Shown: positions 43,313 to 62,475 of the stretch, piece after piece | Layout of the letters: every line of letters starts with the position of its first letter | How positions within the stretch are numbered: position 1 is the first letter of the stretch | DNA from: an uncultured Pseudomonadota bacterium | GTDB taxonomy: Bacteria > SAR324 > NAC60-12 | Assembly: GCA_913020725.1 (NCBI GenBank) | Contig: CAJWCD010000002.1 | Location: 4,217 to 68,216 of the forward strand | DNA: 64,000 nucleotides | Direction of reading: 5' to 3' | Made by a program: the position numbers and the translations under genes | The notes under the pieces: generated by a model | The model's database searches: none | Seen by the model: the letters and a program-made list of their open reading frames with translations, nothing else | What the model was told of the DNA's origin: nothing

Positions 43313-43489
43313 GTGGTCTTTGTTCCCCATGCAGAAAGTGAGTATCAACGACTTGTCGCTGTATTGGATAATTTGATTGATGAAGTGGGTGAAGATGAGA
43401 ATCCTCCCTTGGTTTCCTTGATGGAAGTCGTTGGAGTTCTGATCGAGAAGTATGAGGATGAGCATGTTCCAGAATTGTCAAAAATCTAG
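43313..43489 (+). pseudogene. Remnant of a HigA-family (COG5499-type) antitoxin, N-terminal domain only, truncated before the HTH
   Basis: 58-codon frame ...HAESEYQRLVAVLDNLIDEVGEDENPPLVSLMEVVGVLIEKYEDEHVPELSKI*. It matches the conserved N-terminal module of HigA-like antitoxins (I.tEaeYeaAL..i..L.da.pgt.egd.L..L..LIE.YE..HyPI). No HTH domain follows. Confidence 0.4.
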
Positions 43490-43507
43490 AAGTTGTTAAT
43501 ATCCGAG

Positions 43508-44116: not shown

Positions 44117-44144
44117 ACCCTTTGCCGCAAGGCAGAGAACGTAA

Positions 44145-48832: not shown

Positions 48833-48834
48833 GC

Positions 48835-50079
48835 ATGGACGCCCAGGAAGCAGTCGCGCACTTGCGCTCTCCTGCAACGATTCGGGAACGCTGCCGAATG
48901 GTGTACGAGGCCGCACGGTCGGATCAGCTCGAACACTTTCGGTTGGTTCCGGAACGACTGCCCGATGCTGTGGAAACCGTGGTTGCGGAAATCCGCAAAA
49001 ACTACCCCGCGCTCGACATTCCGTACCACAGCCGCTGGCGGCATTTTGTGATTGATCGCGTGGATCATGCCACTCCCGTGCTGCGGCCACGGGTGGAAAC
49101 CGATGCTCGTGAGCGCCTGCGGGTGCAGTTTGAACTTGCCGTCACCAGTGTGTTGCTGGACGCCGGAGCCGGAGCCGGCTGGTGTTTTCAGAATCCCTTA
49201 GATCGGCGTTCGCACGGACGCTCCGAAGGACTCGCCCTCGCCAGCTTTTACCTGTTTGCGGATGGTGCATTTTCGAGCAATCCCGACCATCCGTTTCGGG
49301 CCGATGCCGAAGGACTCCGGAACTTTAGCGCGGACAAACTGGCAGAGGGGTTTCAGGTTTCTGCCGACAACCCGCTGGTGGGCTTGGAGAAACGGGCGGA
49401 ACTGCTCCGCAAGCTGGGAGAGGCGCTGACCACCCGCCCAAGTCAATTTGGCGGCGCACCTGCACGCATCGGCGATCTCGCTGATTGGTTCTGGGGTGAG
49501 GCAACACCCAACGATCAGGGCACGCGTTCGCTTCCAGCAGCAGCCATCCTGCGGGTCTTGCTCGACAGTTTCAGCAGCATTTGGCCCTCGCGTTTGGAAA
49601 TTGATGGGCAGCCGCTCGGTGATGTTTGGCGGTATCCGGTGGTGCAGACAAACGACCTCACCAACGGACTGATTCCCTTTCACAAACTCTCGCAATGGCT
49701 GGCGTATTCACTGGTGGAACCGTTGGAGGAATCCGGCCTCCGCATTGTGGAACTGGATGCGCTCACCGGACTTCCGGAATACCGCAACGGCGGGCTGTTC
49801 GTGGACCTTGGAGTGCTGGAACCCAAGCACCCGGAGGTGCTGGAAACCGTGCATTCGGTGGATTCGGAGGCGATCGTCGAGTGGCGGGCGCTCACCGTCT
49901 GTTTGCTTGATGAAATCGCCAAAGGGGTCCGTGTTGAGTTGGGGTGCACTCCGGAAACGCTACCCCTGAGCCGCATTCTGCAAGGTGGAACTTGGAGTGC
50001 CGGACGTGCTCTTGCCCAAGCCAAACGTCCGGGAGGGGTGCCGCCAATCCAAATTGAAAGCGACGGCACTGTGTTCTGA
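48835..50079 (+). CDS. Hypothetical protein, possibly DUF1688/URC4-like (assigned from genomic context)
   Basis: ~415 aa, no family I can confirm by eye. Abuts the URC1-like gene (stop/start 2 nt apart) and precedes upp, the arrangement reported for bacterial URC1-URC4 pairs. Confidence 0.4.
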
Positions 50080-50107
50080 TTTTCGTTCACTCATTCAGGA
50101 GAATTCC

Positions 50108-50740
50108 ATGTCTGAAAACTTTATCCACATCAAGCACCCGCTCGTTCAGCACAAGCTCTCGCTGATGCGCAAAAAGGACACCTCCACCAAAGGATTCCGC
50201 GACCTCATCCGCGAGGTTGGAATGCTGCTGGCTTATGAGGTGACGAAGGATTTGCCGCTCAAGTATGAGGAGATCGAGACTCCGTTGCAGAAGATGAACG
50301 CCCCCTTTCTTGGCGGCAAGAAGCTCTGCCTTGTGCCAATTCTACGAGCCGGAATGGGATTGCTTGACGGTTTTTTGGCGATGATTCCTGCCGCTCGTGT
50401 AGGGCATATCGGACTCTACCGCGATCCAGAAACCCTCGTAGCCGTCGAGTACTACCTCAAACTTCCGGATTCCGTGGATGAGCGGCTTGTGATCGTCATT
50501 GATCCGATGCTTGCCACAGGACATTCCGCAGCCGCAGCCGTTTCCCGGATCAAGGAAAGCGGCGCGACCTCCATCCGTTTCGTCTGCCTGCTCGCTGCTC
50601 CGGAAGGCATCCGGTACTTCAACAAGGAGCATTCTGATGTCCCAGTTTATGCTGCGGCTTTGGACGAACGACTCAACGATCACGCCTACATTCTCCCCGG
50701 ACTCGGAGATGCTGGAGACCGGATTTTCGGTACCAAGTGA
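50108..50740 (+). CDS. upp: Uracil phosphoribosyltransferase
   Basis: Near-colinear with E. coli Upp: ...[13 protein letters not shown]..., ...[19 protein letters not shown]..., ...[17 protein letters not shown]. Confidence 0.93.
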
Positions 50741-50768
50741 ACCCTGAGTTTGACCTAGGAACGAAACA

Positions 50769-51395
50769 ATGAGGCTGCAAGTCGCCTTTGATCTGCTCAG
50801 TTTGGAGGAGGTACTGGCATTGTTGGAGGAAGTGCATGACCTTGTGGATATCGTGGAAATTGGCACCCCACTGATTCTCAAGGAGGGCTTGAAGGCGGTC
50901 ACGAAGATCAAGGAATGCTACCCGGATCAGGTGGTGCTCGCTGACCTGAAGATCATGGATGCGGGTGCCCTTGAAGCGGAAATCGGGTTTGATGCGGGAG
51001 CAGACATGATCACTGTGCTGGGGCTGGCTTCACGGACGACCAAGAGCGCGGCGAAAAGCACGGCTGAGCAACATGGAGGAAAGATCGTCGTTGACCTGAT
51101 CAACCACCCACATCCTGTGCAGGAATGGGAGGAACTCCGCAAAATCGGTATGGATTTCTGTTGTATCCACACGGCACATGATGATGCACAACAGCACAAC
51201 ACGCCGTTGGAAACACTAGAAAATTTTCACAAAGTCCATGGGGGGAGCAGGGTCGCAGTTGCCGGAGGTGTTAAACCGTCCCTAATTCGTGAGATGAAAT
51301 CCTTTCCGCCGGAGATCGTCGTGGTCGGAAGCTATATTACTGGTGCGGAGGATGCCCGCGAAGCAGTCCAAAAAATTAGAAAAGCGATGGATTGA
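50769..51395 (+). CDS. hxlA: 3-hexulose-6-phosphate synthase / KGPDC-like (OMP-decarboxylase suprafamily)
   Basis: MRLQVAFDLLSLEEVLALLEEV...VDIVEIGTPLILKEGLKAV...ADLKIMDAG is the HPS/KGPDC family pattern. Confidence 0.7.
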   Translation: MRLQVAFDLLSLEEVLALLEEVHDLVDIVEIGTPLILKEGLKAVTKIKECYPDQVVLADLKIMDAGALEAEIGFDAGADMITVLGLASRTTKSAAKSTAEQHGGKIVVDLINHPHPVQEWEELRKIGMDFCCIHTAHDDAQQHNTPLETLENFHKVHGGSRVAVAGGVKPSLIREMKSFPPEIVVVGSYITGAEDAREAVQKIRKAMD

Positions 51396-51958
51396 GGATG
51401 AACTTTGCAGATTATTCCTCAACTGTGTTGAAAGAAATTGAACAGACTCTCAAGCAAGTTGAGGGGTCGAAGCTGTCAGAATTTTCTGTTCAACTGTGGC
51501 AGTCGCCCAAGGTCTTTGTGGCCGGCGCCGGCAGAACCGGTCTAGTCATGCGTTGTTTTGCAATGCGCTTGATGCATTTGGGGTTGTATGTTCAAATTCT
51601 TGGTGACACCCTTACTGGTGCCATGAAAAAGGAGGATTGCTTGCTGATCGGTTCCGGCTCCGGAGAAACCCCTAGTTTGGTGAGCATTGCTGAAAAAGCG
51701 CAGGAACTGGGAGTCCGGATTGTCCTGTTCGGCATCAATCCAGATTCCAGCATCGGAAAATTGGCATCAGATTGTCTGAGGATTCCGGCACCCTCGCCAA
51801 AACTGAATCACGCAGCTGCTTGCCATTCGATTCAGCCCATGGGTTCACTCTTTGAGCAGAGTCTGTTGCTCACCTTGGATTCTCTTGTAGGCGTGATGAT
51901 GCATCAAAAAGGCATGAACTCGAAGAGCATGTTTTTGAACCATGCGAATGTGGAATAA
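51392..51958 (+). CDS. hxlB: 6-phospho-3-hexuloisomerase-like SIS-domain protein
   Basis: SIS domain (...KVFVAGAGRTGLVMRCFAMRLMHLG...LLIGSGSGETPSLV...). 4-nt overlap with the preceding HPS-like gene. Lower GC (~43%). Confidence 0.7.
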   Translation: MRMNFADYSSTVLKEIEQTLKQVEGSKLSEFSVQLWQSPKVFVAGAGRTGLVMRCFAMRLMHLGLYVQILGDTLTGAMKKEDCLLIGSGSGETPSLVSIAEKAQELGVRIVLFGINPDSSIGKLASDCLRIPAPSPKLNHAAACHSIQPMGSLFEQSLLLTLDSLVGVMMHQKGMNSKSMFLNHANVE

Positions 51959-52107
51959 ACCGCATTCTGAAAACAACATTAAGGAGAGCCTATGCTTTGA
52001 ACACTTGTCTTCATTTTATTAGTCAGCGAGGAATTGAATTGATGCCCGGATTCGGAATCCGTGTTTCACTGGCTGACCCTCTATCATGCAACTCTAAGGA
52101 GTGACTT

Positions 52108-53586
52108 ATGAAACTGTTATTTAAGAAATTATTGGGGATCTTTGTCCCTTTCATGTTACTTGCCAGCGGACCGGTTCATGCCGGAAAATTTGACGGCATC
52201 ACGATTCGGGTGCTCTCAAGACCTGGTCCAGTCATCTCAGGTGCTGTTGACATGCGTGGCAAGAAGTTCACCGAACTTACCGGCGCCAAGGTCATTGTTC
52301 TGGAGTTGCCGTTCTCCGAACTGTTTAACAAGGTGCTCACAGACTGGTCTCAGGGCACGAACTCGATTGACGCAGCGGTGACTTCTTCTGCGTGGGTTCC
52401 GGAACTTGTTGATATGGGGCTGGTCGCAGACCTCAGCGATTTCGTTGCGAATGACCCAGGCCTAAAATTAGATGACATCACCGAGTATTTCCGTGAGTTC
52501 AACCAGAAAGTCAATGGCAAGACTTACACCCTGACTCTGGATGGTGATTTCCACATGTTCTATTATCGCACGGATGTGTTGAATCGCTTCAGCCAGGAGC
52601 CACCGACGACTTGGGACGAATGGTTCGAAGTGGCGAAGGCAATCCATGGTAAGGACTACAACGGCGATGGCGAACCCGACTATGCGTCCTGCGCGTTCAA
52701 GAAACGATCTGCGCAGAGTTACTTCACGATCTGGTCCGTAGCGTCGGCCTTTATTCAGACCAAAGGAACTTCGCAAGGGGTGTTCTTTGATACCAAAACC
52801 GGTAAACCGTCGCTGCCCAATCCAGGATTTGCAGAAGGTTTGCGCGTTTACAAAGAGATGGGCAAATACGGTCCGGCTGACGAGTTGAACATGGACATTG
52901 CCGATATCCGTGCGCTGTATCTGGCCGGGCGTTGTGCGATGGTGATCGAGTGGGGCGACACTTCTCCGCTGGCACTGGAAAGCGATACGGTAAGAAATCT
53001 CTGGGGAGCATCCCAGATGCTGGGCAGCACCAGAGTGTGGAATCGTGACACCAACAGGCTTGAGCAGTGTAATCCCACGCTTTGCCCACACGCGATTAAC
53101 GGTGTCAATCACGCACCATTCGGAGCGTTTGGTGGCTGGTCTGCGTATATCAACAAAAACGCCGATCCGAAAGTCATTCAGGCCGCGTATGAGTTTTTCT
53201 CCTACATGAATGCACCGGAGCAATCGAACATCGATGTCACGCAAGGTTGGACAGGATTCAATCCTTATCGCACATCGCAGTTTGAAGATATCGACAACTG
53301 GTTGGAAGCAGGTTTCACCAGAGCTTCGGCAGCTGCGTACCTGAACGGTATGAAGCAAAGTTTGAGCAACCCGAACTTCGTTTCCGATCTCCGTATTCCG
53401 GGAGCCGCGCAATATACCAGCGTGATTCTCGATACTGAACTAGCGCGCTATCTAGCCGGTGAGATCAACGAAGAACAGACCATGGCCAACATCGCGGAAG
53501 CCTGGGAAGAGGTTACCGAAGACTTTGGGCGTGAGAAGCAGATGAAACTGTATCGGGCTACGCTGGGCCTCAAGGCCAATTATTAG
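52108..53586 (+). CDS. ABC transporter substrate-binding protein (family 1, carbohydrate-type)
   Basis: 492 aa with signal peptide MKLLFKKLLGIFVPFMLLASGPVHA and an extracellular solute-binding fold. Good RBS AAGGAG. Confidence 0.8.
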   Translation: MKLLFKKLLGIFVPFMLLASGPVHAGKFDGITIRVLSRPGPVISGAVDMRGKKFTELTGAKVIVLELPFSELFNKVLTDWSQGTNSIDAAVTSSAWVPELVDMGLVADLSDFVANDPGLKLDDITEYFREFNQKVNGKTYTLTLDGDFHMFYYRTDVLNRFSQEPPTTWDEWFEVAKAIHGKDYNGDGEPDYASCAFKKRSAQSYFTIWSVASAFIQTKGTSQGVFFDTKTGKPSLPNPGFAEGLRVYKEMGKYGPADELNMDIADIRALYLAGRCAMVIEWGDTSPLALESDTVRNLWGASQMLGSTRVWNRDTNRLEQCNPTLCPHAINGVNHAPFGAFGGWSAYINKNADPKVIQAAYEFFSYMNAPEQSNIDVTQGWTGFNPYRTSQFEDIDNWLEAGFTRASAAAYLNGMKQSLSNPNFVSDLRIPGAAQYTSVILDTELARYLAGEINEEQTMANIAEAWEEVTEDFGREKQMKLYRATLGLKANY

Positions 53587-53620
53587 CACTTGCCGATAAC
53601 AGTGAGTTTTTGTTTGTAGC

Positions 53621-54796
53621 GTGACTGCACCGCATCAAATGCAGGGCAGGGGCCAGCCGGAGTCAACAACTCCGGCTGGTTCGCTTGTTTCCTCGGCCAC
53701 GGGTTCAAACCTGAGCGAGTGGGTGGATCGTCACTCACGACAGTTGTTCATTTTTCCCGCCGTCTTTCTAATCCTAGTTTTTTCCATCTTTCCACTGGTT
53801 GCCTCGCTCCTGATCACATTCACTCGCATTCGACCCAGAGCGGGGGGATATCAGATTCGCTGGGTCGGGTTCAAAAACTTCAAAAAATTATTTACAGGGT
53901 CGGAGCAGTATCACCTGCTTGGAACGTTCGAGGGCATCGGTATTTTCGGATGGGTGGTGATCGTTGTTACTGCTGTGGCAATGATTTACTGGCTCTACAG
54001 ATATTCGCAGCAGGACTTTCGGCTCGTAGGGTTTGCCGGAAGACTAATCACGGCGAGTGCTACTTTTGGAATAGCGGTGTTATTTGGTGCGACTCTGTTC
54101 AGTGGCAATAATTTTGGCACGATACCGATGACACTCATTTATGTCCTGCTCGGTTGCTCGGTGCAGTTCTTGATCGGATTGGGGTTGGCCTATTTGTGTT
54201 CGCTGCCCATCGCCGGGCGCGCATTCTTCCGGGTCGTCTTTTTCGTTCCATTGATGATCACACCGGTTGGCATCGCATACCAGTGGCGGATGCTGGCGGA
54301 CATGCGGTTAGGGCCAGTCACACCGCTGTGGCACTGGGCAGGGCTGGGTGAATTTGCTTGGGGATCGAATGCGCTGGCGGCGCGGCTCATGGTCATGGTC
54401 GCTGATGGTTGGATGTGGATACCTTTCATGTTTGTGGTGATGCTTGCCGCATTGGAAACCGTGTCGCGTGACCAAGTTGAGGCTGCGGAAGTGGACGGAG
54501 CAGGAAAGTGGTTCATTTTTCGAGACATCACTTGGCCGCAGATTGCCCCGGTGGCAGGCACGGTTGTGCTGATTCGCTGGATCGAGGGCTTCAAGCTGGT
54601 TGACATTCCCAATGTCATGACCAACGGAGGTCCCGGCATTGCGACCGAAACCTTAACGATGCATTCGTGGACGCGCTGGCGATCACTGGATTTCGCCGGC
54701 TCATCGGCAGTGGCGTACACATTGTTGGTTGTCGCCGTGATCATCTGTGTTTCGTTTTTTAACTTTGTCATTCGCAAGCATGCTCACAGATTATGA
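53621..54796 (+). CDS. ABC transporter permease (MalF/UgpA-like)
   Basis: Polytopic membrane protein with N-terminal extension. Precedes a second permease and an ATPase. Confidence 0.8.
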   Translation: MTAPHQMQGRGQPESTTPAGSLVSSATGSNLSEWVDRHSRQLFIFPAVFLILVFSIFPLVASLLITFTRIRPRAGGYQIRWVGFKNFKKLFTGSEQYHLLGTFEGIGIFGWVVIVVTAVAMIYWLYRYSQQDFRLVGFAGRLITASATFGIAVLFGATLFSGNNFGTIPMTLIYVLLGCSVQFLIGLGLAYLCSLPIAGRAFFRVVFFVPLMITPVGIAYQWRMLADMRLGPVTPLWHWAGLGEFAWGSNALAARLMVMVADGWMWIPFMFVVMLAALETVSRDQVEAAEVDGAGKWFIFRDITWPQIAPVAGTVVLIRWIEGFKLVDIPNVMTNGGPGIATETLTMHSWTRWRSLDFAGSSAVAYTLLVVAVIICVSFFNFVIRKHAHRL

Positions 54797-56022
54797 ATAG
54801 CAGCGCTGAGCCCGGTTTTGTAGGACGCCGCAGCCGTTGGTTCGAACCGGCGGGCATTGGCAAATTATCTCCCGGTGGAAAACTGATCACCTATTTCTTT
54901 TTGCTGCTGTGGGCATTCGTGGTCTTGTTTCCGATCTATTGGCTTTTGATAACGGCGTTCAAACTGCCACCCGATGTCAACAATGGCCCAGCCTATCTTC
55001 CTTGGATCGATTTTCAACCGTCTCTGCATGCTTGGAGGAACATATTTGTCGAGGATTTTGCAGATACATTCCGTTCCTACAGTAATTCGATCATCATCTC
55101 GTTTTTCTCTACGATACTGTGTGTGATCATCGGCTCATTGGCGGCTTATGCACTGGTTCGGATTCAATACAAACCAAAGTTCGGCTCCATTTTGCTGTTT
55201 GTTCTCAGTCTGGTAGGCGCGTTTATCGCGGTCGGACAGTGGGGAATAGACTGGCGATTCGGTGTGACGGCAGGATTGGCGGTCTTTTTTCTGTTGTGGC
55301 GGGCAACCGTGCGGAGACATTTGAGCGACCGGCAGATGTCGCTGGCACTTGGCGTGTTGCTCGTGGTCGCAGCAAGCTCGTTTTTCGCCGCAAGTTTGTC
55401 CGCCGAGTTCGCCGAATACGGACGCCCGGGATCGATTATTCTTGTGTTGCTGGTGATTGGGTGGAGTACGGCGCACTGGCTGAAAAGCTCAATCGGCAAC
55501 GCGGATATTCTGTTCTGGATCATCTCCCAGCGCATCCTGCCCCCGGTTGTGGTCGTGTTACCCATCTACATCATGTTTCAGCGTATCGGTCTGCTCGATA
55601 CCCACCTCGCGTTGATCCTTACCTATGCCGTTGTCAATCTACCGATCGTCGTGTGGTTGATGCACGATTTTATCTCCACCATTCCCCTAGATCTTGAGGA
55701 AAGTGCGCAGTTGGACGGCGCATCGCGTTTGCAGATTTTCTGGGAAATCGTTTTACCGTTATCCAGACCGGGGCTTGCGGCGACCACACTGCTGACATTG
55801 ATTTTGTCTTGGAATGAGTACCTGCTGGCAACATTTCTTTCTACTACCAAGGCGCAAACCATGCCGTTAATGGTCGCCGCCCAGATCACTCAGGAGCGGG
55901 GAATCTACTGGTGGAACATGGCGGTCGTGATCATTATCATGATCATTCCCGTGGTTGCCATGGCGTTCGTGCTGCAGCGGTTCATCGCGAAGGGAGTGCT
56001 GCTCGGAGCTGTAAAGGGATGA
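54793..56022 (+). CDS. ABC transporter permease (MalG/UgpE-like) with N-terminal extension
   Basis: EAA-loop region ...LEESAQLDGASRLQIFWEIVLPLSRPGLAATTLL... 409 aa, longer than the typical ~280. Confidence 0.85.
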   Translation: MNSSAEPGFVGRRSRWFEPAGIGKLSPGGKLITYFFLLLWAFVVLFPIYWLLITAFKLPPDVNNGPAYLPWIDFQPSLHAWRNIFVEDFADTFRSYSNSIIISFFSTILCVIIGSLAAYALVRIQYKPKFGSILLFVLSLVGAFIAVGQWGIDWRFGVTAGLAVFFLLWRATVRRHLSDRQMSLALGVLLVVAASSFFAASLSAEFAEYGRPGSIILVLLVIGWSTAHWLKSSIGNADILFWIISQRILPPVVVVLPIYIMFQRIGLLDTHLALILTYAVVNLPIVVWLMHDFISTIPLDLEESAQLDGASRLQIFWEIVLPLSRPGLAATTLLTLILSWNEYLLATFLSTTKAQTMPLMVAAQITQERGIYWWNMAVVIIIMIIPVVAMAFVLQRFIAKGVLLGAVKG

Positions 56023-56059
56023 CTAAACTAATGCAAAAGGGATGACTAAACTAATGCAA
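56014..56059 (+). repeat. Perfect 23-bp tandem duplication (AAGGGATGACTAAACTAATGCAA x2) across the permease stop / ATPase start junction
   Basis: Read directly: ...gta|aagggatgactaaactaatgcaa|aagggatgactaaactaatgcaa|gaag... Copy 1 holds the permease stop (TGA) and a dead-end ATGACTAAACTAATGCAAAAGGGATGA mini-ORF. Copy 2 holds the ATPase start. Confidence 0.9.
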
Positions 56060-57151
56060 GAAGATCCGAAGCAGTCCGCAGGCAATGCCAAGCGATTGAC
56101 GATCACGGGCTTGAACAAATGGTTCGATCAGGTTCATGTGGTCAAGGACTTGAACATTGATGTGGAACCCGGTGAGTTTCTGGTGTTGCTTGGTCCGTCG
56201 GGTTGCGGAAAGACAACGGCGCTGCGCATGATCGCGGGCCTCGAAGCGGTAGCCAGCGGTGCGATCGTGATCGGGGATACAGAGATCACGAATCTACTGC
56301 CGAAGTATCGGAATATTGCGATGGTCTTTCAGTCGTATGCGCTGTATCCGCACAAAACCGTGGTGGAAAATATCGGCTTTCCTTTCAAAGTCCGTGGCAT
56401 AAAAGGGGAGGTTCGCGATGCCGCAGTCCGGGATGCTGCGGCGCAAGTGCATATGGAATCGATGCTGGACCGATATCCTCGGCAGTTGTCTGGCGGCGAA
56501 CGTCAACGAGTAGCTCTCGCCCGTGCGATCGTGCGCCGTCCGGACGTATTCCTGATGGACGAACCGTTGTCCAATCTCGATGCGAGGTTGCGTATCTATA
56601 TGCGTGCGGAATTGAAACACATGCAACATGAACTCGGCACGACGACAATCTATGTTACCCATGACCAAGTAGAAGCGATGACGCTCGCACACCGGGTTGT
56701 CATCATGAATCACGGTGAGTTACAGCAGATTGGAACGCCGCTGGAGGTGTACAACAATCCGAGCAACACATTCGTTGCTGGTTTCATGGGATCGCCGCCG
56801 ATGAACCTGATTAACGGTAATATTTCCCAAGGGAGTTTTCAGACTGAGGGCATGAACATTCCAATGAATGGGAAGCTACAGGATGGCGCTGTGGTGTTAG
56901 GGTTTCGTCCGGAGGACGCTGACATCGTGGACTCCGGCCAAGGGCATTTCAATGCTCGCGTCTTCACCGTTGAACTGGCAGGGGATTACACTCTGGTTAC
57001 GGTTGTGTTTGGAGACAACAGCGTGACTGTGAAGATGCCTTCAGACTATGACGCCGCGTATGACAGTGAAGTGGCAGTCCGTTTCTCTATGGAAAAAACC
57101 TTGTTCTTCGACGCAAAGTCGGGCGAACGCCTTGAACTGGGCGGATCGTAA
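56042..57151 (+). CDS. ABC transporter ATP-binding protein (MalK/UgpC-type)
   Basis: Walker A LLGPSGCGKTT, Q-loop, signature LSGGERQRVALARAIV, Walker B FLMDEPLSNLD, and a C-terminal TOBE-like regulatory domain. Confidence 0.9.
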   Translation: MTKLMQEDPKQSAGNAKRLTITGLNKWFDQVHVVKDLNIDVEPGEFLVLLGPSGCGKTTALRMIAGLEAVASGAIVIGDTEITNLLPKYRNIAMVFQSYALYPHKTVVENIGFPFKVRGIKGEVRDAAVRDAAAQVHMESMLDRYPRQLSGGERQRVALARAIVRRPDVFLMDEPLSNLDARLRIYMRAELKHMQHELGTTTIYVTHDQVEAMTLAHRVVIMNHGELQQIGTPLEVYNNPSNTFVAGFMGSPPMNLINGNISQGSFQTEGMNIPMNGKLQDGAVVLGFRPEDADIVDSGQGHFNARVFTVELAGDYTLVTVVFGDNSVTVKMPSDYDAAYDSEVAVRFSMEKTLFFDAKSGERLELGGS

Positions 57152-57204
57152 CCTGCACAAACGGCTCGCTTGCTCAGCATGCCCAATCTCCACATCAGCT
57201 AGCA

Positions 57205-58128
57205 ATGAGTTCCGCACGACTCGGTTTCATCGGCGTTTCCACAGCACAATCTCTCGTCAATGAACTGTTTCCGAGGTGGTCCAAAACCCTTGGCCTCGGA
57301 ATCGGCGAGGTGGTGGGGATTGACCTGCCCGTCAATCTCACCGGAGACGCGATTCGCAGTGCGGTGTTGCGCATCCGGGAGGATACTTCCGTGTCCGGAG
57401 CTTTGGTGACCACGCACAAGGTTGCCGTTTGGGAACACACCCGCGATCTTTTCAAGAAGTTCGACGAACACGCCCAGCGGCTTTGCGAAGTTAGTTGTCT
57501 CTCCCGGAATCCTCAAGGTGACTTGGTGGGCCATGCCAAGGATCCGATCACTGCCGGACTGGCATGGGATCAGGTTGTGTCCTCCTACCACTGGTCCCGG
57601 CATCCGGAAGCAGAATTGCTGATTCTCGGATCCGGAGGCGCAGGGGTGGCTCTTGCGTGGAATGTGCTACAGCGTGAATCTGCTCCCCGGATGGTGACAC
57701 TCACTGAACTGAATCCGGAACGCCTGCTCGCGGCCAAGTCGCACCTTCAGAAATTTGATCGCTCACAAGTCCATGTCAGTCTCACGGGCACCCCTGCTGT
57801 AGCAGACCGTCATCTGGGGCACCTTCCTCCGCATAGTGTGGTGGTCAATGCCACGGGACTTGGCAAGGACCGCCCCGGTTCTCCGCTCACTGATGCAGCC
57901 CAGTTTCCAAAGCACGGGATTGTCTGGGAGTTCAACTATCGGGGAGAGCGGCAGTTTCTCACGCAAGCTCAGGAGCAGATGCAAGCTCAGCAACTCCAAA
58001 TTGTGGACGGCTGGGATTATTTTCTGCTGGGTTGGGCACATGTCAGCGCAGAGGTTTTCCATTTTGATTTGACTCCGGAGTGCTTCCAAACCCTTAAGGA
58101 AACTGCGCAACCCCTTCGCCCCATTTGA
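57205..58128 (+). CDS. Shikimate/quinate 5-dehydrogenase family protein
   Basis: N-terminal substrate domain (GFIGVSTAQS...ALVTTHKV) and Rossmann motif ILGSGGAGVALAWNV match the AroE family. Confidence 0.7.
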   Translation: MSSARLGFIGVSTAQSLVNELFPRWSKTLGLGIGEVVGIDLPVNLTGDAIRSAVLRIREDTSVSGALVTTHKVAVWEHTRDLFKKFDEHAQRLCEVSCLSRNPQGDLVGHAKDPITAGLAWDQVVSSYHWSRHPEAELLILGSGGAGVALAWNVLQRESAPRMVTLTELNPERLLAAKSHLQKFDRSQVHVSLTGTPAVADRHLGHLPPHSVVVNATGLGKDRPGSPLTDAAQFPKHGIVWEFNYRGERQFLTQAQEQMQAQQLQIVDGWDYFLLGWAHVSAEVFHFDLTPECFQTLKETAQPLRPI

Positions 58129-58129
58129 G

Positions 58130-58714
58130 ATGATCCCTCCGATCCGTGCCAACTTTGACGCCACGACGGGCCACTTTCCCCAAGCCACTGGCCACTACCA
58201 AAAAACGCTCGAGGATTTGGCAGGGCTCTACTACGATCAGGATGCGTTTGCGGCACTACTGCAGGAGTGGAAGGGTCGATTCGTTTATGAAGTTTGGGAG
58301 CATCGGGCTTCTAAGGATTCTGGTGATTTGGTTTTTGGAACCAGCGTCATGCAACCCGGGCAGGTCGGGAACGAATTTTTCCTGACGAGAGGGCACCAGC
58401 ATCTCCTTGCTGACCGTGCCGAAACCTACTACTGTCTGTCTGGTAGCGGATTAGTGCTGATGGAAAGCCCCGCGGGGGAAGCCAAGGTGCTGGAGCAGGT
58501 TCCGGGGCAACTGGTCTATGTCCCGCCGCACTGGATTCACCGCAGCATCAACACCGGAGATTCCGTGCTGACCACCTTGTTCTGCTACAACGCCGATGCA
58601 GGACAAGACTATGAGATCATCCGGAAGCGTGGAGGAATGCGAAAACTCATAGTCACAGACGGCAACGGCGGTTGGGCGCTTGCAGACAACCCCAACTATG
58701 TCAGTCCTTCCTGA
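58130..58714 (+). CDS. Cupin-type glucose-6-phosphate isomerase (archaeal-type cPGI)
   Basis: Cupin PGI signatures ...FFLTRGHQH...ETYYCLSG... and ...YVPPHWIHRSINTGD. Starts 2 nt after the preceding stop. Confidence 0.7.
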   Translation: MIPPIRANFDATTGHFPQATGHYQKTLEDLAGLYYDQDAFAALLQEWKGRFVYEVWEHRASKDSGDLVFGTSVMQPGQVGNEFFLTRGHQHLLADRAETYYCLSGSGLVLMESPAGEAKVLEQVPGQLVYVPPHWIHRSINTGDSVLTTLFCYNADAGQDYEIIRKRGGMRKLIVTDGNGGWALADNPNYVSPS

Positions 58715-59016
58715 CTCCCAAGTAGTTGATTAGTAGGCAGTTAATGCGATCTCTACGAGATTTGCTATCGCACCTACACAGCTCTTTTCGAGAGCTCTGA
58801 CGACTCGAATTGAATCCAGAAAGCAATGCCAAAATTCGTGAATTTGTTTTGAACATGAGTTTGGGATCAGCAAACAGAGGTGCGACCAGTCGATTCCCAC
58901 CCTTTGAAAAGGAGGATCAAGGGAGATTTTGAAGCAGAAACGTTTTGAAAACCCACTGCCTCACTTTTCGAAATGAGGGCCTTGATCCAAAACTCACATT
59001 ATTGAGAAAAATTAAG

Positions 59017-60060
59017 ATGCTAACCACATTCGATCCGCAACAGGCATGGCATTTTTATCGCCAGATGCGGCGTATTCGGGTTTTTGAAGAACGGGTGGGA
59101 GAACTGTTTATGCGTGGAGGCACGGCAGGTTCGATGCTGCACCTCTCAATCGGAGAGGAATCTGCTGCTGTTGGAGTGGGAGAGGCAATGCGTCAGGGTG
59201 ATGGCTTCACGACACACCACCGTGGACACGGCATCTTCCTCGCCCGAGGCGCAGACCCCAAACGCATGATGGCAGAAATCGGCGGCAAAGCGGAGGGATA
59301 CTGCCGAGGCAAAGGCGGGTCCATGCACATTGCCGACAGAAAATTGGGGCATCTCGGAGCAAACGCGATTGTTGGCGGAGGCATCACCCATGTCGTCGGT
59401 GCTGGCCTGTCCTATCAACTCCAGCAGACCGGGCAGGTTGCCGTGGCTTTTTTTGGAGACGGCGCGATGCAACAAGGAGGGTTGTACGAGAGCATGAACC
59501 TTGCGGCACTCTGGAAACTTCCGGTCATCTTCGTCTGCATCAACAACGAATACGGGATGGGAACCCGTCTGGATCAAGCCAGTGCGTCCTTGGAGTTTGC
59601 CCGGAGAGCCGAGACTTTTGGACTGGAGGGACGAGAAGTGGACGGATTGGAAGTGATCCAGATCTATCGCATTGCGCGAGTGCTGCTTGAAGGGGCAAGA
59701 CAGGGGCGTCCAGCGTTTTTGAAGATCAACTGCTACCGCTTTTTTGGTCACGCCCGCATGGACAAGAGCCCTTATCGGAAGGAGGAGGAGGAGGAATCCG
59801 GACGAAAGAAGGATGCTCTTGAACACCTCGGGCAACTCATGACGCGCGAGGAATGGGCGACTGCAACCGAGTTTGAAGAGACAGACAACGAGGTTGGTGT
59901 AGAAATGGACGAAGCCATGGATTATGCCTTGAAGACGGCTGATCCGGAACTGCCCCAAAGGTTTGAGGATGTGTTCTCCCGCGAGACTCCACAGCCGGTT
60001 CCGGTCGATGATCGCATCCGCAAGACGATGCTTTCCCCCGTGCTAGCAGGTTCACAATGA
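59017..60060 (+). CDS. acoA: TPP-dependent acetoin/pyruvate dehydrogenase E1 alpha subunit
   Basis: TPP-binding region ...GGKAEGYCRGKGGSMHI...GDGAMQQGGLYESMNLAALWKLPVIFVCINNEYGMGT. Start taken at ATG 59017 (tracked ORF from 58945). Confidence 0.8.
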   Translation: MLTTFDPQQAWHFYRQMRRIRVFEERVGELFMRGGTAGSMLHLSIGEESAAVGVGEAMRQGDGFTTHHRGHGIFLARGADPKRMMAEIGGKAEGYCRGKGGSMHIADRKLGHLGANAIVGGGITHVVGAGLSYQLQQTGQVAVAFFGDGAMQQGGLYESMNLAALWKLPVIFVCINNEYGMGTRLDQASASLEFARRAETFGLEGREVDGLEVIQIYRIARVLLEGARQGRPAFLKINCYRFFGHARMDKSPYRKEEEEESGRKKDALEHLGQLMTREEWATATEFEETDNEVGVEMDEAMDYALKTADPELPQRFEDVFSRETPQPVPVDDRIRKTMLSPVLAGSQ

Positions 60061-61031
60061 CTGAAACAACCTACCGCGAAGCCCTGAGGCTCGCCCTGCA
60101 AGAGGCCATGCGAGAGGATGCATCCATTCTCGTCATCGGGGAGGATGTGGGACGCTACGGAGGCGCCTACGGAGTCACGAAGGGGATGCTGGAGGAGTTC
60201 GGCGAGTCACGCATCCGCGACACTCCGATTTCGGAAGAGGGCATTGTTGGAGCCGCAGTCGGAACTGCAATGACAGGACTGCGCCCGGTTGTGGAATTGA
60301 TGTATGTGGATTTTGTGATGTTGGCGATGGATCAGCTTGCCAATCAAGCCGCAAAAATCCGCTACATGTTCGGCGGTCAGATTGGAGTGCCCATGGTGTT
60401 GCGGGCACAGGGAGGCACAGGGCGTTCCGGTGCAGCTCAACACTCGCAGAGTCTGGAAGCTTGGATGATGCACACGCCCGGATTGCATGTTGCTATGCCT
60501 GCGACGGTGACCGATGCTTATGTCCTGCTTCGACATTCGTTGACCCTTCCGGATCCTGTTGTCTTCCTTGAACACAAGGGACTCTACACCATGAAAGGGG
60601 AGTTAACTCCGGAAATTGCACTGCCATGGGGCCAAGCGGAGATTCGACGGAAAGGAACGGACTTCACGCTCATCACCTACTCCCGGATGGTCCACCGCGC
60701 CCTTGAGGCGGCAGACAGCCTTGCCGTTAACGGTATCCACGCCGAGGTCATTGACCTCCGGACCCTGCACCCTCTCGACATGGAAACGGTCACTACTTCT
60801 GTTGCGAAAACAGGCCGCGCCTTAGTTGTCACGGAAGACTGCCTCACTGCAGGAGTCAGTGCAGAACTCGCTGCCTGCATCATGGAAGGGGCTTTCGATT
60901 ATCTGGAAGAACCGGTGCTGCGGCTTGCAGGTGAAGACATTCCTATTCCGGTGGCTGCTGGTTTGGAGGCCGAAGCTGTGCCGAACGTCGAGCGCATCGT
61001 CGAAACCGCGAAACTGCTGTTGCGACAATGA
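60057..61031 (+). CDS. acoB: Acetoin/pyruvate dehydrogenase E1 beta subunit
   Basis: 324 aa transketolase-like beta subunit (...VIGEDVGRYGGAYGVTKGMLEEFG...). 4-nt overlap with acoA. Confidence 0.85.
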   Translation: MTETTYREALRLALQEAMREDASILVIGEDVGRYGGAYGVTKGMLEEFGESRIRDTPISEEGIVGAAVGTAMTGLRPVVELMYVDFVMLAMDQLANQAAKIRYMFGGQIGVPMVLRAQGGTGRSGAAQHSQSLEAWMMHTPGLHVAMPATVTDAYVLLRHSLTLPDPVVFLEHKGLYTMKGELTPEIALPWGQAEIRRKGTDFTLITYSRMVHRALEAADSLAVNGIHAEVIDLRTLHPLDMETVTTSVAKTGRALVVTEDCLTAGVSAELAACIMEGAFDYLEEPVLRLAGEDIPIPVAAGLEAEAVPNVERIVETAKLLLRQ

Positions 61032-62440: not shown

Positions 62441-62475
62441 ATCCGGCACAACTTCACCCCAGCAGTGTAGAGCCG

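What the first reader, a model, noticed from the sequence alone, without database searches (positions are those of the whole stretch)
50700..58900. Lower-GC island: HPS-like/PHI-like + sugar ABC transporter + AroE-like dehydrogenase + cupin-type PGI, contiguous with the URC-like genes
GC falls from ~58-60% to ~43-50% across this block; for example 51421-51480 is 43% against 55% at 3001-3060. It contains genes with an archaeal or methylotroph flavour: 3-hexulose-6-P synthase-like (OMP-decarboxylase suprafamily) and SIS-domain PHI-like genes with a 4-nt overlap, a cupin-type phosphoglucose isomerase rarely seen in bacteria, a full family-1 ABC importer and an AroE-family dehydrogenase. Together HPS + PHI + PGI form a formaldehyde/ribulose-5-P to fructose-6-P to glucose-6-P route, or its reverse for pentose formation. 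The position directly after upp, plus an OMPDC-fold enzyme, also allows a speculative link to processing of ribosylated URC-pathway intermediates. No integrase or transposase is in the window, so the mobilisation mechanism is not visible.
Basis: partly seen in the sequence, partly recalled or inferred. Interest (0 to 1): 0.55.

Follow-up and report, generated by a model that had tools for sequence, protein, structure and literature searches.

The report
SAR324 sugar-uptake operon with formaldehyde-fixing enzymes
This stretch of an uncultured deep-ocean SAR324 bacterium is a recurring, uncharacterised sugar-import and breakdown gene cluster with the two formaldehyde-fixing RuMP enzymes built in; it is unrelated to the uracil-degradation genes next to it and may show how these abundant bacteria use methylated sugars.

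Summary
The gene calls are right. HxlA and HxlB both score above their curated cut-offs. A complete CUT1 ABC importer, an AroE-fold dehydrogenase and a cupin PGI follow. The GC dip is real but modest: 52.5% against 56.8%. It is confined to HxlA through the ATPase (51.8%). There is no tRNA, flanking repeat or detected mobility gene.

The source is a SAR324 bacterium. HxlA-HxlB-SBP-permease-permease-ATPase recurs in three other marine lineages, labelled SAR324 where a taxon name exists (GC 34-42%). A PhyH-type Fe/2-oxoglutarate oxygenase lies beside it wherever upstream DNA is held. AroE-like, cupin, FGGY, PfkB and AcoC genes recur nearby in shuffled orders. The unit therefore probably runs from 50769 to 63408.

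AroE-like plus cupin PGI is itself a widespread bacterial pairing (59 of 83 loci). The URC link fails: none of 80 URC4 loci carries these genes.

The best model is inferred, not shown. An imported carbohydrate, possibly O-methylated, releases formaldehyde. HxlAB captures it as fructose-6-P and the cupin PGI passes it on to glucose-6-P. The window itself lacks PhyH. I rate this a new variant of a known kind, of moderate interest.

The parts
47585..50740 (+). Upstream neighbours, not part of the unit: URC1-like (47585-48832), DUF1688/URC4-like (48829-50079) and upp (about 50108-50740)
   Evidence: Pfam GTP_CH_N + GTP_cyclohydro2, DUF1688 and UPRTase. The triad is conserved in 41-43 of 80 metagenome loci, and none of those carries the sugar-block genes. 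Only 28 bp separate upp from hxlA.
50769..51395 (+). hxlA, 3-hexulose-6-phosphate synthase
   Evidence: TIGR03128, 230 bits against a cut-off of 200. Best PDB matches are 3F4W and 3AJX (HPS), E about 1e-40, against 1e-20 for KGPDC. Asp, His and Ala occupy KGPDC positions 112, 139 and 169.
51392..51958 (+). hxlB, 6-phospho-3-hexuloisomerase (start is TTG 51392 or ATG 51398)
   Evidence: TIGR03127, 208.7 bits against a cut-off of 160. Best PDB match is 1M3S, B. subtilis YckF/HxlB, E 2e-42. Start codons were read.
52108..53586 (+). Periplasmic substrate-binding protein of a CUT1-type ABC importer (492 aa, Sec signal peptide ending VHA|G)
   Evidence: SBP_bac_1/SBP_bac_8. The N-terminus was read. 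It is 83% identical to the SBP of low-GC SAR324 locus L179 and 74-76% to stand-alone transporters L176 and L177. PDB sequence matches are weak (E >= 7e-11), so no substrate call is possible.
53621..54796 (+). ABC permease 1 (start uncertain; public gene calls use 53639)
   Evidence: BPD_transp_1. A 14-bp-stem hairpin at 53650-53682 overlaps the 5' end of the ORF.
54793..56022 (+). ABC permease 2
   Evidence: BPD_transp_1. Best NCBIfam match is the archaeal GlcU-type permease, 120 bits, below its cut-off.
56042..57151 (+). ABC ATPase, MalK/UgpC type (start 56042 or 56054)
   Evidence: ABC_tran + OB_MalK + TOBE_2. UgpC subfamily, 424 bits against a cut-off of 432. An exact 23-nt tandem duplication lies at 56013-56058, across the permease 2/ATPase junction.
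57205..58128 (+). AroE-fold NAD(P) dehydrogenase of an uncharacterised subfamily; not a shikimate dehydrogenase orthologue
   Evidence: No Pfam hit, and at most 31 bits to aroE models. The AF2 model has pLDDT 94.7. Foldseek top hits are shikimate DH 3TOZ and 5-ketofructose reductase 7COK (TM about 0.7). The profile hits 1NVT at 1e-8 and 7COK at 3e-8, with K72 and D113 aligned to the catalytic Lys and Asp.
58130..58714 (+). Cupin-type phosphoglucose isomerase
   Evidence: PF06560, E 6.6e-44. It matches 1J3P (T. litoralis PGI) at E 3e-45. H89, H91, E98 and H137 are invariant in alignment A2. A homologue is present in 59 of 83 AroE-like loci, on the same strand in 58.
58945..62440 (+). Acetoin-dehydrogenase-type complex: E1 alpha (58945 or 59017 to 60060), E1 beta (60057-61031), AcoC-type E2 (61028-62440). 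Membership of the unit is probable but not certain.
   Evidence: E1_dh; Transket_pyr + Transketolase_C; Biotin_lipoyl + E3_binding + Abhydrolase. AcoC equivalog NF011457, 364 bits against a cut-off of 307. An AcoC-like fragment (45% identity) followed by PfkB lies directly upstream of the PhyH/AroE-like/HxlAB cluster in L187. A roughly 300-bp AT-rich gap precedes E1 alpha.
62323..63408 (+). PfkB-family sugar kinase, fructokinase-like (public gene calls start at 62476)
   Evidence: PfkB. Best NCBIfam match is fructokinase, 147 bits, below its cut-off. It is 59% identical to the PfkB beside the cluster in L187. PfkB genes also flank the cluster in L182, L185, L188, L062, L081 and L023.

Best explanation
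Window 50769-63408 of a SAR324 bacterium is a lineage-specific arrangement of a recurring marine carbohydrate-utilisation cluster. It is not an accessory to the URC genes.

**Shown**
- The genes are a true HPS/PHI pair, a complete CUT1 ABC importer, an AroE-fold dehydrogenase, a cupin PGI, an acetoin-dehydrogenase-type complex and a fructokinase-like PfkB.
- The core HxlA-HxlB-SBP-permease-permease-ATPase is conserved in three other marine lineages, which carry SAR324 labels where a taxon name is available.
- In those lineages a PhyH-family Fe(II)/2-oxoglutarate oxygenase always lies beside hxlA where upstream DNA is held. AroE-like, cupin, FGGY, PfkB and AcoC genes recur around the core in different orders.

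**Inferred mechanism**
1. The binding protein and importer take up a free carbohydrate or polyol, possibly an O-methylated sugar of marine dissolved organic matter.
2. An oxygenase step releases formaldehyde. PhyH would do this in the relatives; the enzyme is not present in this window.
3. HxlA condenses the formaldehyde with ribulose-5-P, and HxlB isomerises the product to fructose-6-P.
4. The sugar skeleton is processed by the (probably NAD-dependent) AroE-like dehydrogenase and phosphorylated by PfkB.
5. The cupin PGI converts fructose-6-P to glucose-6-P for Entner-Doudoroff or pentose-phosphate metabolism.

The GC step inside the block reflects its mosaic origin. HxlAB and the transporter resemble low-GC relatives. 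AroE-like and the cupin resemble high-GC relatives.
For: **Identity of the parts:**

**Organism:** NCBI names for identical proteins are SAR324 cluster bacterium, Deltaproteobacteria bacterium or Ca. Lambdaproteobacteria.

**Conserved core with PhyH:**
- L179/L180: PhyH, LacI, HxlA, HxlB, SBP, permease.
- L182-184: PhyH (opposite strand), AroE-like, HxlA, HxlB, SBP, permease, permease, ATPase.
- L185/186: PhyH, HxlA, HxlB, SBP and onward.
- L187: AcoC-like, PfkB, PhyH (opposite strand), AroE-like, HxlA, HxlB, SBP and onward.
- L188: HxlA, HxlB, SBP, permease, permease, ATPase, PfkB, then cupin, AroE-like and FGGY on the opposite strand. L189: PhyH, HxlA, HxlB.
- These loci are 34-42% GC. L179 and L188 proteins carry SAR324 labels in NCBI, though the L188 SBP cluster is also labelled Rhodobacterales and Neomarinimicrobiota. 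No taxon name was found for the L182/L187 lineage.
- The PhyH proteins are orthologous (61-80% identity).

**Independent recruitment.** The window's AroE-like protein is 62% and 53% identical to those of L007 and L013. It is only 39-41% identical to the AroE-like genes beside HxlA in L182, L187 and L188.

**Chloroflexota.** Loci L040 and L062 again place HxlAB beside a long-SBP CUT1 transporter with FGGY, AroE-like and cupin genes. L062 also has a PhyH-family ORF.

**Sugar-type regulation.** The L179 regulator is most like fructose-responsive LacI/FruR proteins.

**Precedent.** In Zobellia, hxlA and hxlB detoxify the formaldehyde made by oxidative demethylation of 6-O-methyl-galactose and are induced by porphyran (PMC9400963).

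**Composition.** The GC step is shown.
Against: - The window's 64 kb holds no PhyH, FGGY or LacI homologue (tblastn to E = 1). The proposed formaldehyde-producing step is therefore not encoded here.
- No substrate can be read from the SBP.
- PhyH-family enzymes catalyse many reactions other than demethylation. Their nearest solved relatives (SnoK, EvdO2, EctD) are only distantly similar (E >= 5e-7).
- The closest SBP homologues outside the cluster are stand-alone transporters with no linked enzymes: L176 at 76%, L177 at 74% and L178 at 59%.
- The roles of the AroE-like enzyme and of the Aco complex in the model are not specified by any data.
- upp and hxlA are only 28 bp apart. Co-transcription with the URC genes in this lineage cannot be excluded.
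- All evidence is comparative. Nothing has been measured.
Confidence: 0.45

Rival explanations
1. Direct 3-hexulose route with no free formaldehyde. The imported hexitol or ketohexose is oxidised or rearranged (by the AroE-like dehydrogenase, or by a GMC oxidoreductase or ketose 3-epimerase in relatives) to a 3-ketohexose. It is then phosphorylated by PfkB or FGGY to D-arabino-3-hexulose-6-P. HxlB isomerises this to fructose-6-P, and the cupin PGI converts it to glucose-6-P.
For: - The neighbouring genes are ketose-centred. They include a fructokinase-like PfkB, a FruR-like LacI and a psicose-3-epimerase-like AP_endonuc_2 protein in L185.
- GMC oxidoreductases lie in L062 and L023.
- The nearest structural relatives of the AroE-like enzyme include 5-ketofructose reductase.
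- This model works without PhyH, which the window lacks.
Against: - It gives HxlA no role, yet HxlA always accompanies HxlB.
- Cleaving the intermediate with HxlA would generate toxic formaldehyde.
- To my knowledge no free 3-hexulose or C3-specific hexitol dehydrogenase of this fold is known.
- The conserved PhyH is left unexplained.
Confidence: 0.15
2. Two unrelated functions lie side by side. HxlAB is SAR324's general formaldehyde detoxification or assimilation module, serving its C1 metabolism. The ABC importer, AroE-like enzyme, cupin PGI and PfkB form an ordinary fructose- or polyol-type utilisation operon, comparable to polyol operons with a dehydrogenase and a fructokinase.
For: - Each module exists alone elsewhere. 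The AroE-like/cupin/FGGY triad occurs without HxlAB in 81 of 83 loci.
- The transporter occurs alone in L176-L178.
- The three parts of the window block have different nearest relatives.
- SAR324 is described as having C1 metabolism (PMC4705458).
Against: - The HxlAB-transporter adjacency survives divergence to 52-64% HxlA identity, a GC range of 34-57%, two SBP types (47-49% identical to each other) and repeated rearrangement of the flanks.
- In L179 a sugar-type LacI regulator sits directly upstream of hxlA, rather than a formaldehyde sensor.
- The adjacency reappears in Chloroflexota.
Confidence: 0.2
3. Oxidative (dissimilatory) RuMP-type cycle. HxlA, HxlB and the cupin PGI feed glucose-6-P (or an analogue) to the AroE-like enzyme, which acts as a sugar-phosphate 1-dehydrogenase. 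The widespread FGGY, AroE-like, cupin, lactonase, 2-hydroxyacid-dehydrogenase and KDPG-aldolase cluster would then be an alternative phosphosugar oxidation pathway.
For: - Across 83 loci, ORF clustering finds the AroE-like gene with a PTE-family hydrolase in 31, a 2-hydroxyacid dehydrogenase in 33 and a KDPG-aldolase-like gene in 16. tblastn finds FGGY in 57-58 and the cupin in 59.
- MBL-fold hydrolases take the same position in Marinovum and S. meliloti.
- Glu at the end of the second Rossmann strand (TLTE) suggests NAD and a catabolic direction (inference).
Against: - There is no evidence that the enzyme accepts phosphosugars.
- The window has no lactonase, 2-hydroxyacid dehydrogenase or KDPG aldolase in the cluster.
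- Known members of the fold act on unphosphorylated cyclic substrates.
Confidence: 0.1
4. This is a horizontally acquired, archaeal- or methylotroph-flavoured island whose OMPDC-fold enzyme and sugar genes process ribosylated intermediates of the adjacent URC uracil-degradation pathway, or run the RuMP route in reverse to make pentoses.
For: - The block lies directly downstream of URC1-URC4-upp, with a 28-bp gap.
- The HxlA-ATPase segment has lower GC.
- The cupin PGI family was first characterised in archaea.
Against: - 0 of 80 URC4 loci carry any of the block's genes, and 0 of 83 AroE-like loci carry URC genes.
- In other lineages the same core sits next to PhyH, LacI and enolase instead.
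- HxlA has HPS-type residues.
- There is no tRNA, flanking repeat or detected mobility gene.
- The cupin's nearest relatives are bacterial.
Confidence: 0.05

Closest known systems
RuMP formaldehyde-fixation pair HxlA/HxlB (B. subtilis hxlAB, Mycobacterium gastri rmpAB), and its coupling to methoxy-sugar demethylation in Zobellia galactanivorans (PMC9400963)
   Same: - HPS and PHI are adjacent and probably translationally coupled. Both score above the curated equivalog cut-offs.
- They are embedded in carbohydrate-utilisation genes of a marine heterotroph.
- In relatives an oxygenase gene lies beside them.
   Different: - The oxygenase in the relatives is a PhyH-type Fe/2-oxoglutarate enzyme, not a P450 with ferredoxin and reductase. 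It is absent from this window.
- Uptake is by a CUT1 ABC importer rather than a Bacteroidetes PUL.
- There is no HxlR or FrmR-type regulator. One relative has a FruR-like LacI.
- Neither the substrate nor formaldehyde release has been demonstrated.
Cupin-type phosphoglucose isomerases (Pyrococcus furiosus and Thermococcus litoralis cPGI; bacterial cPGIs of Ensifer meliloti and Salmonella, the latter recalled from memory of Hansen et al. 2005)
   Same: - PF06560 domain.
- 43% identity to the T. litoralis enzyme and 45% to the E. meliloti pSymB protein.
- His/His/Glu/His metal site and other invariant residues are kept. The AGQDY motif is shared with the E. meliloti protein.
   Different: - Here it is the 3' partner of an AroE-like dehydrogenase inside catabolic clusters (59 of 83 loci), not a stand-alone glycolytic enzyme.
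- Its activity and its specificity (glucose-6-P versus mannose-6-P or other sugar phosphates) are untested.
Shikimate dehydrogenase (AroE/YdiB) superfamily, including 5-ketofructose reductase of Gluconobacter (PDB 7COK)
   Same: - Two-domain AroE fold (TM about 0.7).
- Catalytic Lys/Asp dyad and a GxGGxG Rossmann loop.
   Different: - 15-21% identity to any solved member.
- It fails all Pfam and NCBIfam shikimate dehydrogenase models.
- It has its own invariant motifs (TTHK, GHAKD, NATGLGKDRPGSP, WEFNYRG, DGWxYFxxGW).
- Its genomic context is sugar catabolism, not aromatic amino-acid synthesis.
Polyol/sugar CUT1 ABC utilisation operons with dehydrogenase plus PfkB/FGGY kinases (e.g. Pseudomonas fluorescens mtlEFGKDYZ, recalled from memory)
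   Same: One SBP, two permeases and a MalK-type ATPase, followed by an oxidoreductase and sugar kinases that deliver fructose-6-P.
   Different: - The SBP (492 aa) and permeases (391 and 409 aa) are unusually long.
- The dehydrogenase has the AroE fold.
- HxlAB and a cupin PGI are included.
Acetoin dehydrogenase complex AcoABC
   Same: - The E2 has a lipoyl domain, an E3-binding domain and an alpha/beta-hydrolase fold, and scores above the AcoC equivalog cut-off (364 against 307).
- The E1 beta scores above its subfamily cut-off.
   Different: - No E3 (AcoL) or AcoR is in the window.
- It sits inside a sugar cluster, and AcoC-PfkB recurs beside the HxlAB cluster in L187.
- Its substrate here is unknown.
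URC pyrimidine-degradation pathway (URC1, URC4, URC6/upp of Lachancea kluyveri)
   Same: URC1-like, DUF1688/URC4-like and upp genes lie immediately upstream on the same strand.
   Different: They do not co-occur with the sugar block in other genomes (0 of 80). The adjacency is specific to this lineage.

Membership tests
[quoted passage not shown] | Score above the curated equivalog cut-off | tested here: met
   230 bits against a cut-off of 200
[quoted passage not shown] | HPS-type rather than KGPDC-type residues at KGPDC positions 112, 139 and 169 (Asp, non-Arg, Ala; the criterion is recalled from Yew et al. 2005) | tested here: met
   Asp, His and Ala, read from the alignment to KGPDC chain 1XBY. 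Hits to HPS structures reach 1e-40, against 1e-20 for KGPDC.
[quoted passage not shown] | Mg-dependent condensation of formaldehyde with ribulose-5-P | not testable with these tools
   Needs an enzyme assay
6-phospho-3-hexuloisomerase (HxlB, TIGR03127) | Score above the curated cut-off, and adjacency to HPS | tested here: met
   208.7 bits against a cut-off of 160. It lies directly after hxlA. It matches 1M3S (B. subtilis YckF) at 2e-42.
Cupin-type phosphoglucose isomerase (PF06560) | Pfam gathering score, and the His-His-Glu-His metal site | tested here: met
   149.8 bits against 20.7. H89, H91, E98 and H137 are invariant in A2.
Cupin-type phosphoglucose isomerase (PF06560) | Glucose-6-P/fructose-6-P isomerase activity | not testable with these tools
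   Inferred only from 43-45% identity to the T. litoralis enzyme and to the E. meliloti pSymB protein; that the latter is characterised is recalled from memory
Shikimate dehydrogenase (AroE) orthologue | Match to the Pfam Shikimate_dh_N/Shikimate_DH or NCBIfam aroE models at their cut-offs | tested here: not met
   No Pfam hit. 22-31 bits against cut-offs of 200-413. No PDB hit by phmmer.
AroE/SDH structural superfamily | Two-domain fold with the catalytic Lys/Asp dyad and a glycine-rich NAD(P) loop | tested here: met
   Foldseek E 1e-17, TM about 0.7. K72 and D113 align to the catalytic residues.
CUT1 (family-1 SBP) carbohydrate ABC importer | SBP_bac_1/8 protein with a signal peptide, two BPD_transp_1 permeases and a MalK-type ATPase with OB/TOBE domains | tested here: met
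Genomic island (horizontally acquired block) | Atypical composition | tested here: inconclusive
   A 4-point GC drop and the lowest GC in the window, but only for 50769-57151. Tetranucleotide z = -2.3, in a permease-rich segment.
Genomic island (horizontally acquired block) | Integrase or transposase, a tRNA target, or flanking direct repeats | tested here: not met
   No tRNA and no flanking repeats. No mobility genes among the roughly 32 ORFs scanned between 20 and 64 kb; not every ORF of the window was scanned.
Genomic island (horizontally acquired block) | Variable presence or position among relatives | tested here: inconclusive
   - Same-species contigs from several oceans are identical in synteny.
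- A divergent SAR324 lineage has the core at another locus.
- The parts have different nearest relatives.
- Intermediate relatives could not be sampled.
URC-pathway accessory genes | Co-occurrence with URC1 and URC4 across genomes | tested here: not met
   0 of 80 URC4 loci and 0 of 83 AroE-like loci
Methoxy-sugar demethylation coupled to RuMP detoxification (Zobellia type) | A demethylating oxygenase encoded with or near hxlAB | tested here: not met
   No P450 or PhyH in the window. PhyH is present beside hxlA in the three related lineages.
Acetoin dehydrogenase complex | AcoC-type E2 and E1 alpha/beta at the curated cut-offs | tested here: met
   AcoC 364 against 307. E1 beta 383 against 321. 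E1 alpha is below its cut-off (310 against 394).

The most novel reading that the evidence does not exclude
SAR324, one of the most abundant deep-ocean lineages, carries a previously undescribed pathway. An ABC-imported O-methylated (or otherwise C1-bearing) sugar from marine dissolved organic matter is demethylated by a PhyH-type Fe/2-oxoglutarate oxygenase. The formaldehyde is captured on the spot by an operon-encoded RuMP pair. A new AroE-fold sugar dehydrogenase and a bacterial cupin PGI complete entry into central metabolism. The FGGY/AroE-like/cupin triad found in many phyla would then mark a wider, still unnamed sugar-catabolic pathway.
Probability: 0.25. Interest if true: 0.75.

Novelty: new variant of a known kind. 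Interest (0 to 1): 0.55.

Why it matters
SAR324 is ubiquitous in the dark ocean and has no cultured representative, so its carbon sources are inferred from genomes.

A conserved operon that joins a sugar importer to formaldehyde-fixing enzymes, and in most lineages to an oxygenase, gives a concrete and testable handle on how these cells might use methylated sugars or related components of dissolved organic matter. It would also explain why non-methylotrophs keep RuMP genes.

Separately, the AroE-like dehydrogenase family has no Pfam model and no characterised member, yet it is linked to a cupin PGI and an FGGY kinase in dozens of genomes, including cultivable Microbacterium, Paenibacillus, Sinorhizobium and Marinovum. 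Those organisms are practical routes to discovering its function.

The result also corrects two tempting misreadings: a link to the URC pathway, and an archaeal-type genomic island.

Tried and rejected
- **URC link rejected.** A metagenome scan with URC4 gave 80 loci. URC1-URC4-upp is conserved in them, but none has any gene of the block.
- **Relatives lacking the block could not be tested.**
- **Urea carboxylase guess was wrong.** I first took the 1189-aa ORF at 20318 for urea carboxylase. It is SMC, and the upstream region is housekeeping.
- **Fuconate lead dropped.** A Paraburkholderia plasmid has a 49.5%-identical SBP beside L-fuconate dehydratase. L179 has an 'enolase-like' gene near the cluster, but that gene is true glycolytic enolase.
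- **No substrate from the SBP sequence.** PDB matches are E >= 7e-11 and go to sophorose-, trehalose/maltose- and sulfoquinovosyl-glycerol-binding proteins. That is too weak for a call.
- **Promoter and terminator scan uninformative.** Counts were at or below shuffle expectation.
- **SBP identity is not evidence of recent transfer.** SBP identity of 83% to L179, against 52% for HxlA, looked like recent transfer. But SBPs are also far more conserved than HxlA among the other lineages (81% against 57%), so I do not use it as proof.
- **Literature searches found no description of this cluster.** Searches covered URC1/URC4, SAR324 with hexulose or RuMP, the shikimate-dehydrogenase family with FGGY, and PhyH with hexulose-6-phosphate.
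- **No PhyH relative on plasmids.** A tblastn search of the plasmid collection with a PhyH orthologue gave no match.

Full report
**1. Observation**

- HxlA: 50769-51395, TIGR03128, 230 bits against a cut-off of 200.
- HxlB: 51392-51958, TIGR03127, 208.7 against 160.
- Importer: a 492-aa family-1 solute-binding protein, two BPD_transp_1 permeases and a MalK/UgpC-type ATPase (52108-57151).
- A 307-aa protein with no Pfam hit and only 23-31 bits to aroE models (57205-58128).
- A cupin GPI: PF06560, E 6.6e-44, 58130-58714.

The GC dip exists but is smaller than stated.
- The block is 52.5% GC against 56.8% for the rest. 1-kb windows run from 49.5% to 56.6%.
- It is the lowest-GC 8.2-kb block of the window.
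- Gene-level GC and GC3 are significantly lower (p = 8e-5 and 0.003).
- The low part is only HxlA through the ATPase (51.8%). AroE-like plus cupin (56.4%) and the genes downstream (56.8%) are host-like.
- The tetranucleotide signature is most deviant at 52-58 kb (z = -2.3). That segment is mostly permease genes, and the ribosomal-protein region deviates almost as much.

There is no tRNA and no flanking repeat. None of the roughly 32 ORFs I scanned between 20 and 64 kb is a mobility gene, though I did not scan every ORF. The surrounding DNA is core chromosome: the ribosomal-protein operon (EF-Tu at 2733-3932 is named as such), SMC, hisD, dnaG, rpoD, metG and nuo genes.

**2. Organism**

Proteins identical to those of the window are named SAR324 cluster bacterium, Deltaproteobacteria bacterium or Ca. 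Lambdaproteobacteria in NCBI. They occur on contigs from several ocean metagenomes with identical synteny from thyX to an amidase gene.

**3. Identity of the individual parts**

*HxlA* matches HPS structures (3F4W, 3AJX) at about 1e-40, against 1e-20 for 3-keto-L-gulonate-6-P decarboxylase. It has Asp, His and Ala at KGPDC positions 112, 139 and 169. The HPS-type pattern is Asp, non-Arg, Ala, a criterion I recall from Yew et al. 2005.

*HxlB* is closest to B. subtilis YckF/HxlB (2e-42).

*The cupin* matches T. litoralis PGI at 3e-45 and keeps the His/His/Glu/His metal site. It shares the AGQDY motif with the E. meliloti pSymB cupin PGI.

*The AroE-like protein* was modelled with high confidence (pLDDT 94.7).
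- Its best structural matches are shikimate dehydrogenases and the 5-ketofructose reductase of Gluconobacter (TM about 0.7, 15-21% identity).
- A family profile aligns K72 and D113 with the catalytic Lys and Asp of AroE.
- It is therefore an AroE-fold oxidoreductase of a distinct subfamily without a Pfam model. It is not a shikimate dehydrogenase.

*Downstream genes* are an acetoin-dehydrogenase-type E1 alpha/beta and an AcoC-type E2 (364 bits against a cut-off of 307), followed by a fructokinase-like PfkB.

**4. The URC link fails**

URC1-like, DUF1688/URC4-like and upp genes precede hxlA.
- In 80 metagenome loci found with URC4, the URC1-URC4-upp triad is common (41-43 loci). None contains HxlA, HxlB, this SBP, the AroE-like gene or the cupin.
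- None of 83 AroE-like loci contains URC genes.

The adjacency is peculiar to this lineage. With only 28 bp between upp and hxlA, read-through transcription is possible here.

**5. What recurs instead**

*(a) An AroE-like, cupin and FGGY triad in many phyla.* Eighty GTDB loci found with the AroE-like profile, plus three from exact-protein look-ups, span Actinomycetota, Bacillota, Chloroflexota, Pseudomonadota, Verrucomicrobiota, Atribacterota and others.
- By tblastn, a cupin PGI homologue is present in 59 of 83 loci. It is on the same strand in 58 and within 300 bp in 22.
- An FGGY kinase is present in 57-58 of 83.
- Other frequent partners are a 2-hydroxyacid dehydrogenase (33), a PTE-family hydrolase (31), a GntR regulator (23), a Zn-ADH (21) and a KDPG-aldolase-like gene (16), along with CUT2 or CUT1 transporters.
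- Annotated examples are Marinovum algicola pMaD8 and S. meliloti Ak57.

AroE-like plus cupin 'PGI' is thus a widespread and, as far as I could find, uncharacterised catabolic pair. The cupin is not rare in bacteria.

*(b) The core HxlA-HxlB-SBP-permease-permease-ATPase in three other marine lineages of 34-42% GC.* L179 and L188 proteins carry SAR324 labels, although the L188 SBP cluster is also labelled Rhodobacterales and Neomarinimicrobiota. I found no taxon name for the L182/L187 lineage.

| Loci | Gene order |
|---|---|
| L179-181 | enolase, PhyH, LacI, HxlA, HxlB, SBP, permeases |
| L182-184 | PhyH (opposite strand), AroE-like, HxlA, HxlB, SBP, permease, permease, ATPase |
| L185/186 | PhyH, HxlA, HxlB, SBP and onward |
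| L187 | AcoC-like, PfkB, PhyH (opposite strand), AroE-like, HxlA, HxlB, SBP and onward |
| L188 | HxlA, HxlB, SBP, permease, permease, ATPase, PfkB, then cupin, AroE-like and FGGY on the opposite strand |
| L189 | PhyH, HxlA, HxlB |

- The L179 enolase is a true glycolytic enolase.
- L182-184 also have PfkB, FrlB-like SIS, AKR and FGGY genes nearby.
- L185/186 also have a psicose-epimerase-like gene, Dak1/2, PfkB and FGGY.
- A PhyH-family oxygenase lies beside hxlA in every locus that holds upstream DNA. The four PhyH proteins compared are orthologous (61-80% identity).

*(c) Chloroflexota.* Two loci (L040, L062) again place HxlAB against a long-SBP CUT1 transporter with FGGY, AroE-like and cupin genes. 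L062 also has a PhyH-family ORF and a GMC oxidoreductase.

**6. Mosaic structure**

| Part of the window block | Nearest relative found |
|---|---|
| HxlA | L182 lineage, 64% |
| SBP | L179 lineage, 83% (type A; 47-49% to the type B SBP of the other lineages) |
| AroE-like | L007 (62%) and L013 (53%); only 39-41% to the AroE-like genes beside HxlA in L182, L187 and L188 |
| Cupin | L013, 64% |

L007 and L013 are high-GC loci at about 61% GC.

AroE-like genes of different subfamilies have therefore been recruited independently next to the same core. This argues for a functional connection. It also explains the GC step at about 57.2 kb.

SBPs are generally far more conserved than HxlA among these lineages. 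The 83% figure alone therefore does not prove recent transfer.

AcoC-PfkB flanks the cluster both here and in L187 (45% and 59% identity). The unit probably extends to 63408.

**7. Mechanism**

*Shown:* the identities and the synteny above.

*Inferred:* the only known physiological role of a bacterial HxlA/HxlB pair is formaldehyde fixation. Its conserved embedding between an oxygenase gene and a sugar importer, under a FruR-like LacI regulator in L179, suggests that breakdown of the imported compound releases formaldehyde.

The precedent is Zobellia. There, hxlAB detoxifies formaldehyde from P450-catalysed demethylation of 6-O-methyl-galactose and is induced by porphyran (PMC9400963).

Methylated sugars are reported components of marine high-molecular-weight DOM. 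That statement rests on my own knowledge and was not checked here.

The neighbouring genes all centre on ketoses and fructose-6-P. They include a fructokinase-like PfkB, a psicose-epimerase-like gene, FrlB/FrlD-like genes, PHI and PGI. This fits delivery of fructose-6-P and its conversion to glucose-6-P by the cupin PGI.

*Weak points:*
- The window has no PhyH, FGGY or LacI.
- The SBP ligand cannot be predicted.
- The closest SBP homologues outside the cluster are stand-alone transporters.
- The roles of the AroE-like enzyme and the Aco complex are open.

*Rivals:* a direct 3-hexulose route, two unrelated modules side by side, and an oxidative RuMP-type cycle with the AroE-like enzyme as a phosphosugar dehydrogenase. 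All three are kept, with stated probabilities.

**8. Novelty and verdict**

I found no description of this cluster in the searchable literature. The parts are known kinds of enzymes. The combination is a new variant of sugar catabolism coupled to formaldehyde capture, and the AroE-like family is uncharacterised.

The RuMP route is plausible, the island idea holds only in a weak mosaic sense, and the URC link is unsupported. Interest is moderate at 0.55. A specialist in marine carbon cycling would find the conserved hxlAB-importer-oxygenase linkage in SAR324 worth testing, but all the evidence is comparative.

Noticed in passing
window 56013-56058: An exact 23-nt tandem duplication (AAAGGGATGACTAAACTAATGCA, two copies) spans the stop codon of permease 2 and both candidate ATG starts of the ATPase (56042 and 56054).
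   Followed up: no
window 53650-53682: A strong hairpin (14-bp stem, 9 G-C pairs) lies just after the SBP gene and inside the longest-ORF start of permease 1. It may be an SBP-distal mRNA stabiliser or attenuator. The true permease start may lie downstream.
   Followed up: no
window 45854-47482: A double-length ThyX (542 aa, two Thy1 stretches) lies directly upstream of the URC1-like gene.
   Followed up: no
window 47585-50740; loci L093-L172: URC1-like, DUF1688/URC4-like and upp form a conserved bacterial gene triad. It is intact in 41-43 of 80 metagenome loci found with URC4. This is a bacterial counterpart of the yeast URC pathway.
   Followed up: partly
window 42058-45218: A DUF1989 gene (43493-44116) sits between nuoD-like (42058-43287) and nuoH-like (44145-45218) genes. 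DUF1989 is, as I recall, usually associated with urea carboxylase.
   Followed up: no
loci L013-L092, L173, L174: A widespread cluster occurs in many phyla, including cultivable Microbacterium, Paenibacillus, Sinorhizobium and Marinovum. It combines FGGY kinase, an AroE-like dehydrogenase, a cupin PGI, a 2-hydroxyacid dehydrogenase, a PTE- or MBL-type hydrolase and a KDPG-aldolase-like gene. I found no description of it in the searchable literature, and its substrate is unknown.
   Followed up: partly
loci L009/L010, L013, L014, L174: Some AroE-like genes sit beside DeoC-like aldolase, a 792-aa aldehyde dehydrogenase and nucleoside-catabolism genes (PNP, cytidine deaminase, Bmp-type ABC transporter). 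This hints at a deoxyribose- or ribose-related role in those members.
   Followed up: no
loci L182-L189 compared with L179 and the window: The transporter's SBP is far more conserved between lineages (81-92%) than the adjacent HxlA (55-57%). There are two SBP types, 47-49% identical to each other, in the same operon architecture. This suggests either strong constraint or exchange of the transporter genes between these lineages.
   Followed up: partly
L062 11599-13455: An EcoRV-type restriction endonuclease and a D12-class adenine methyltransferase are inserted between the cupin gene and a sulfatase in the Anaerolineae locus.
   Followed up: no
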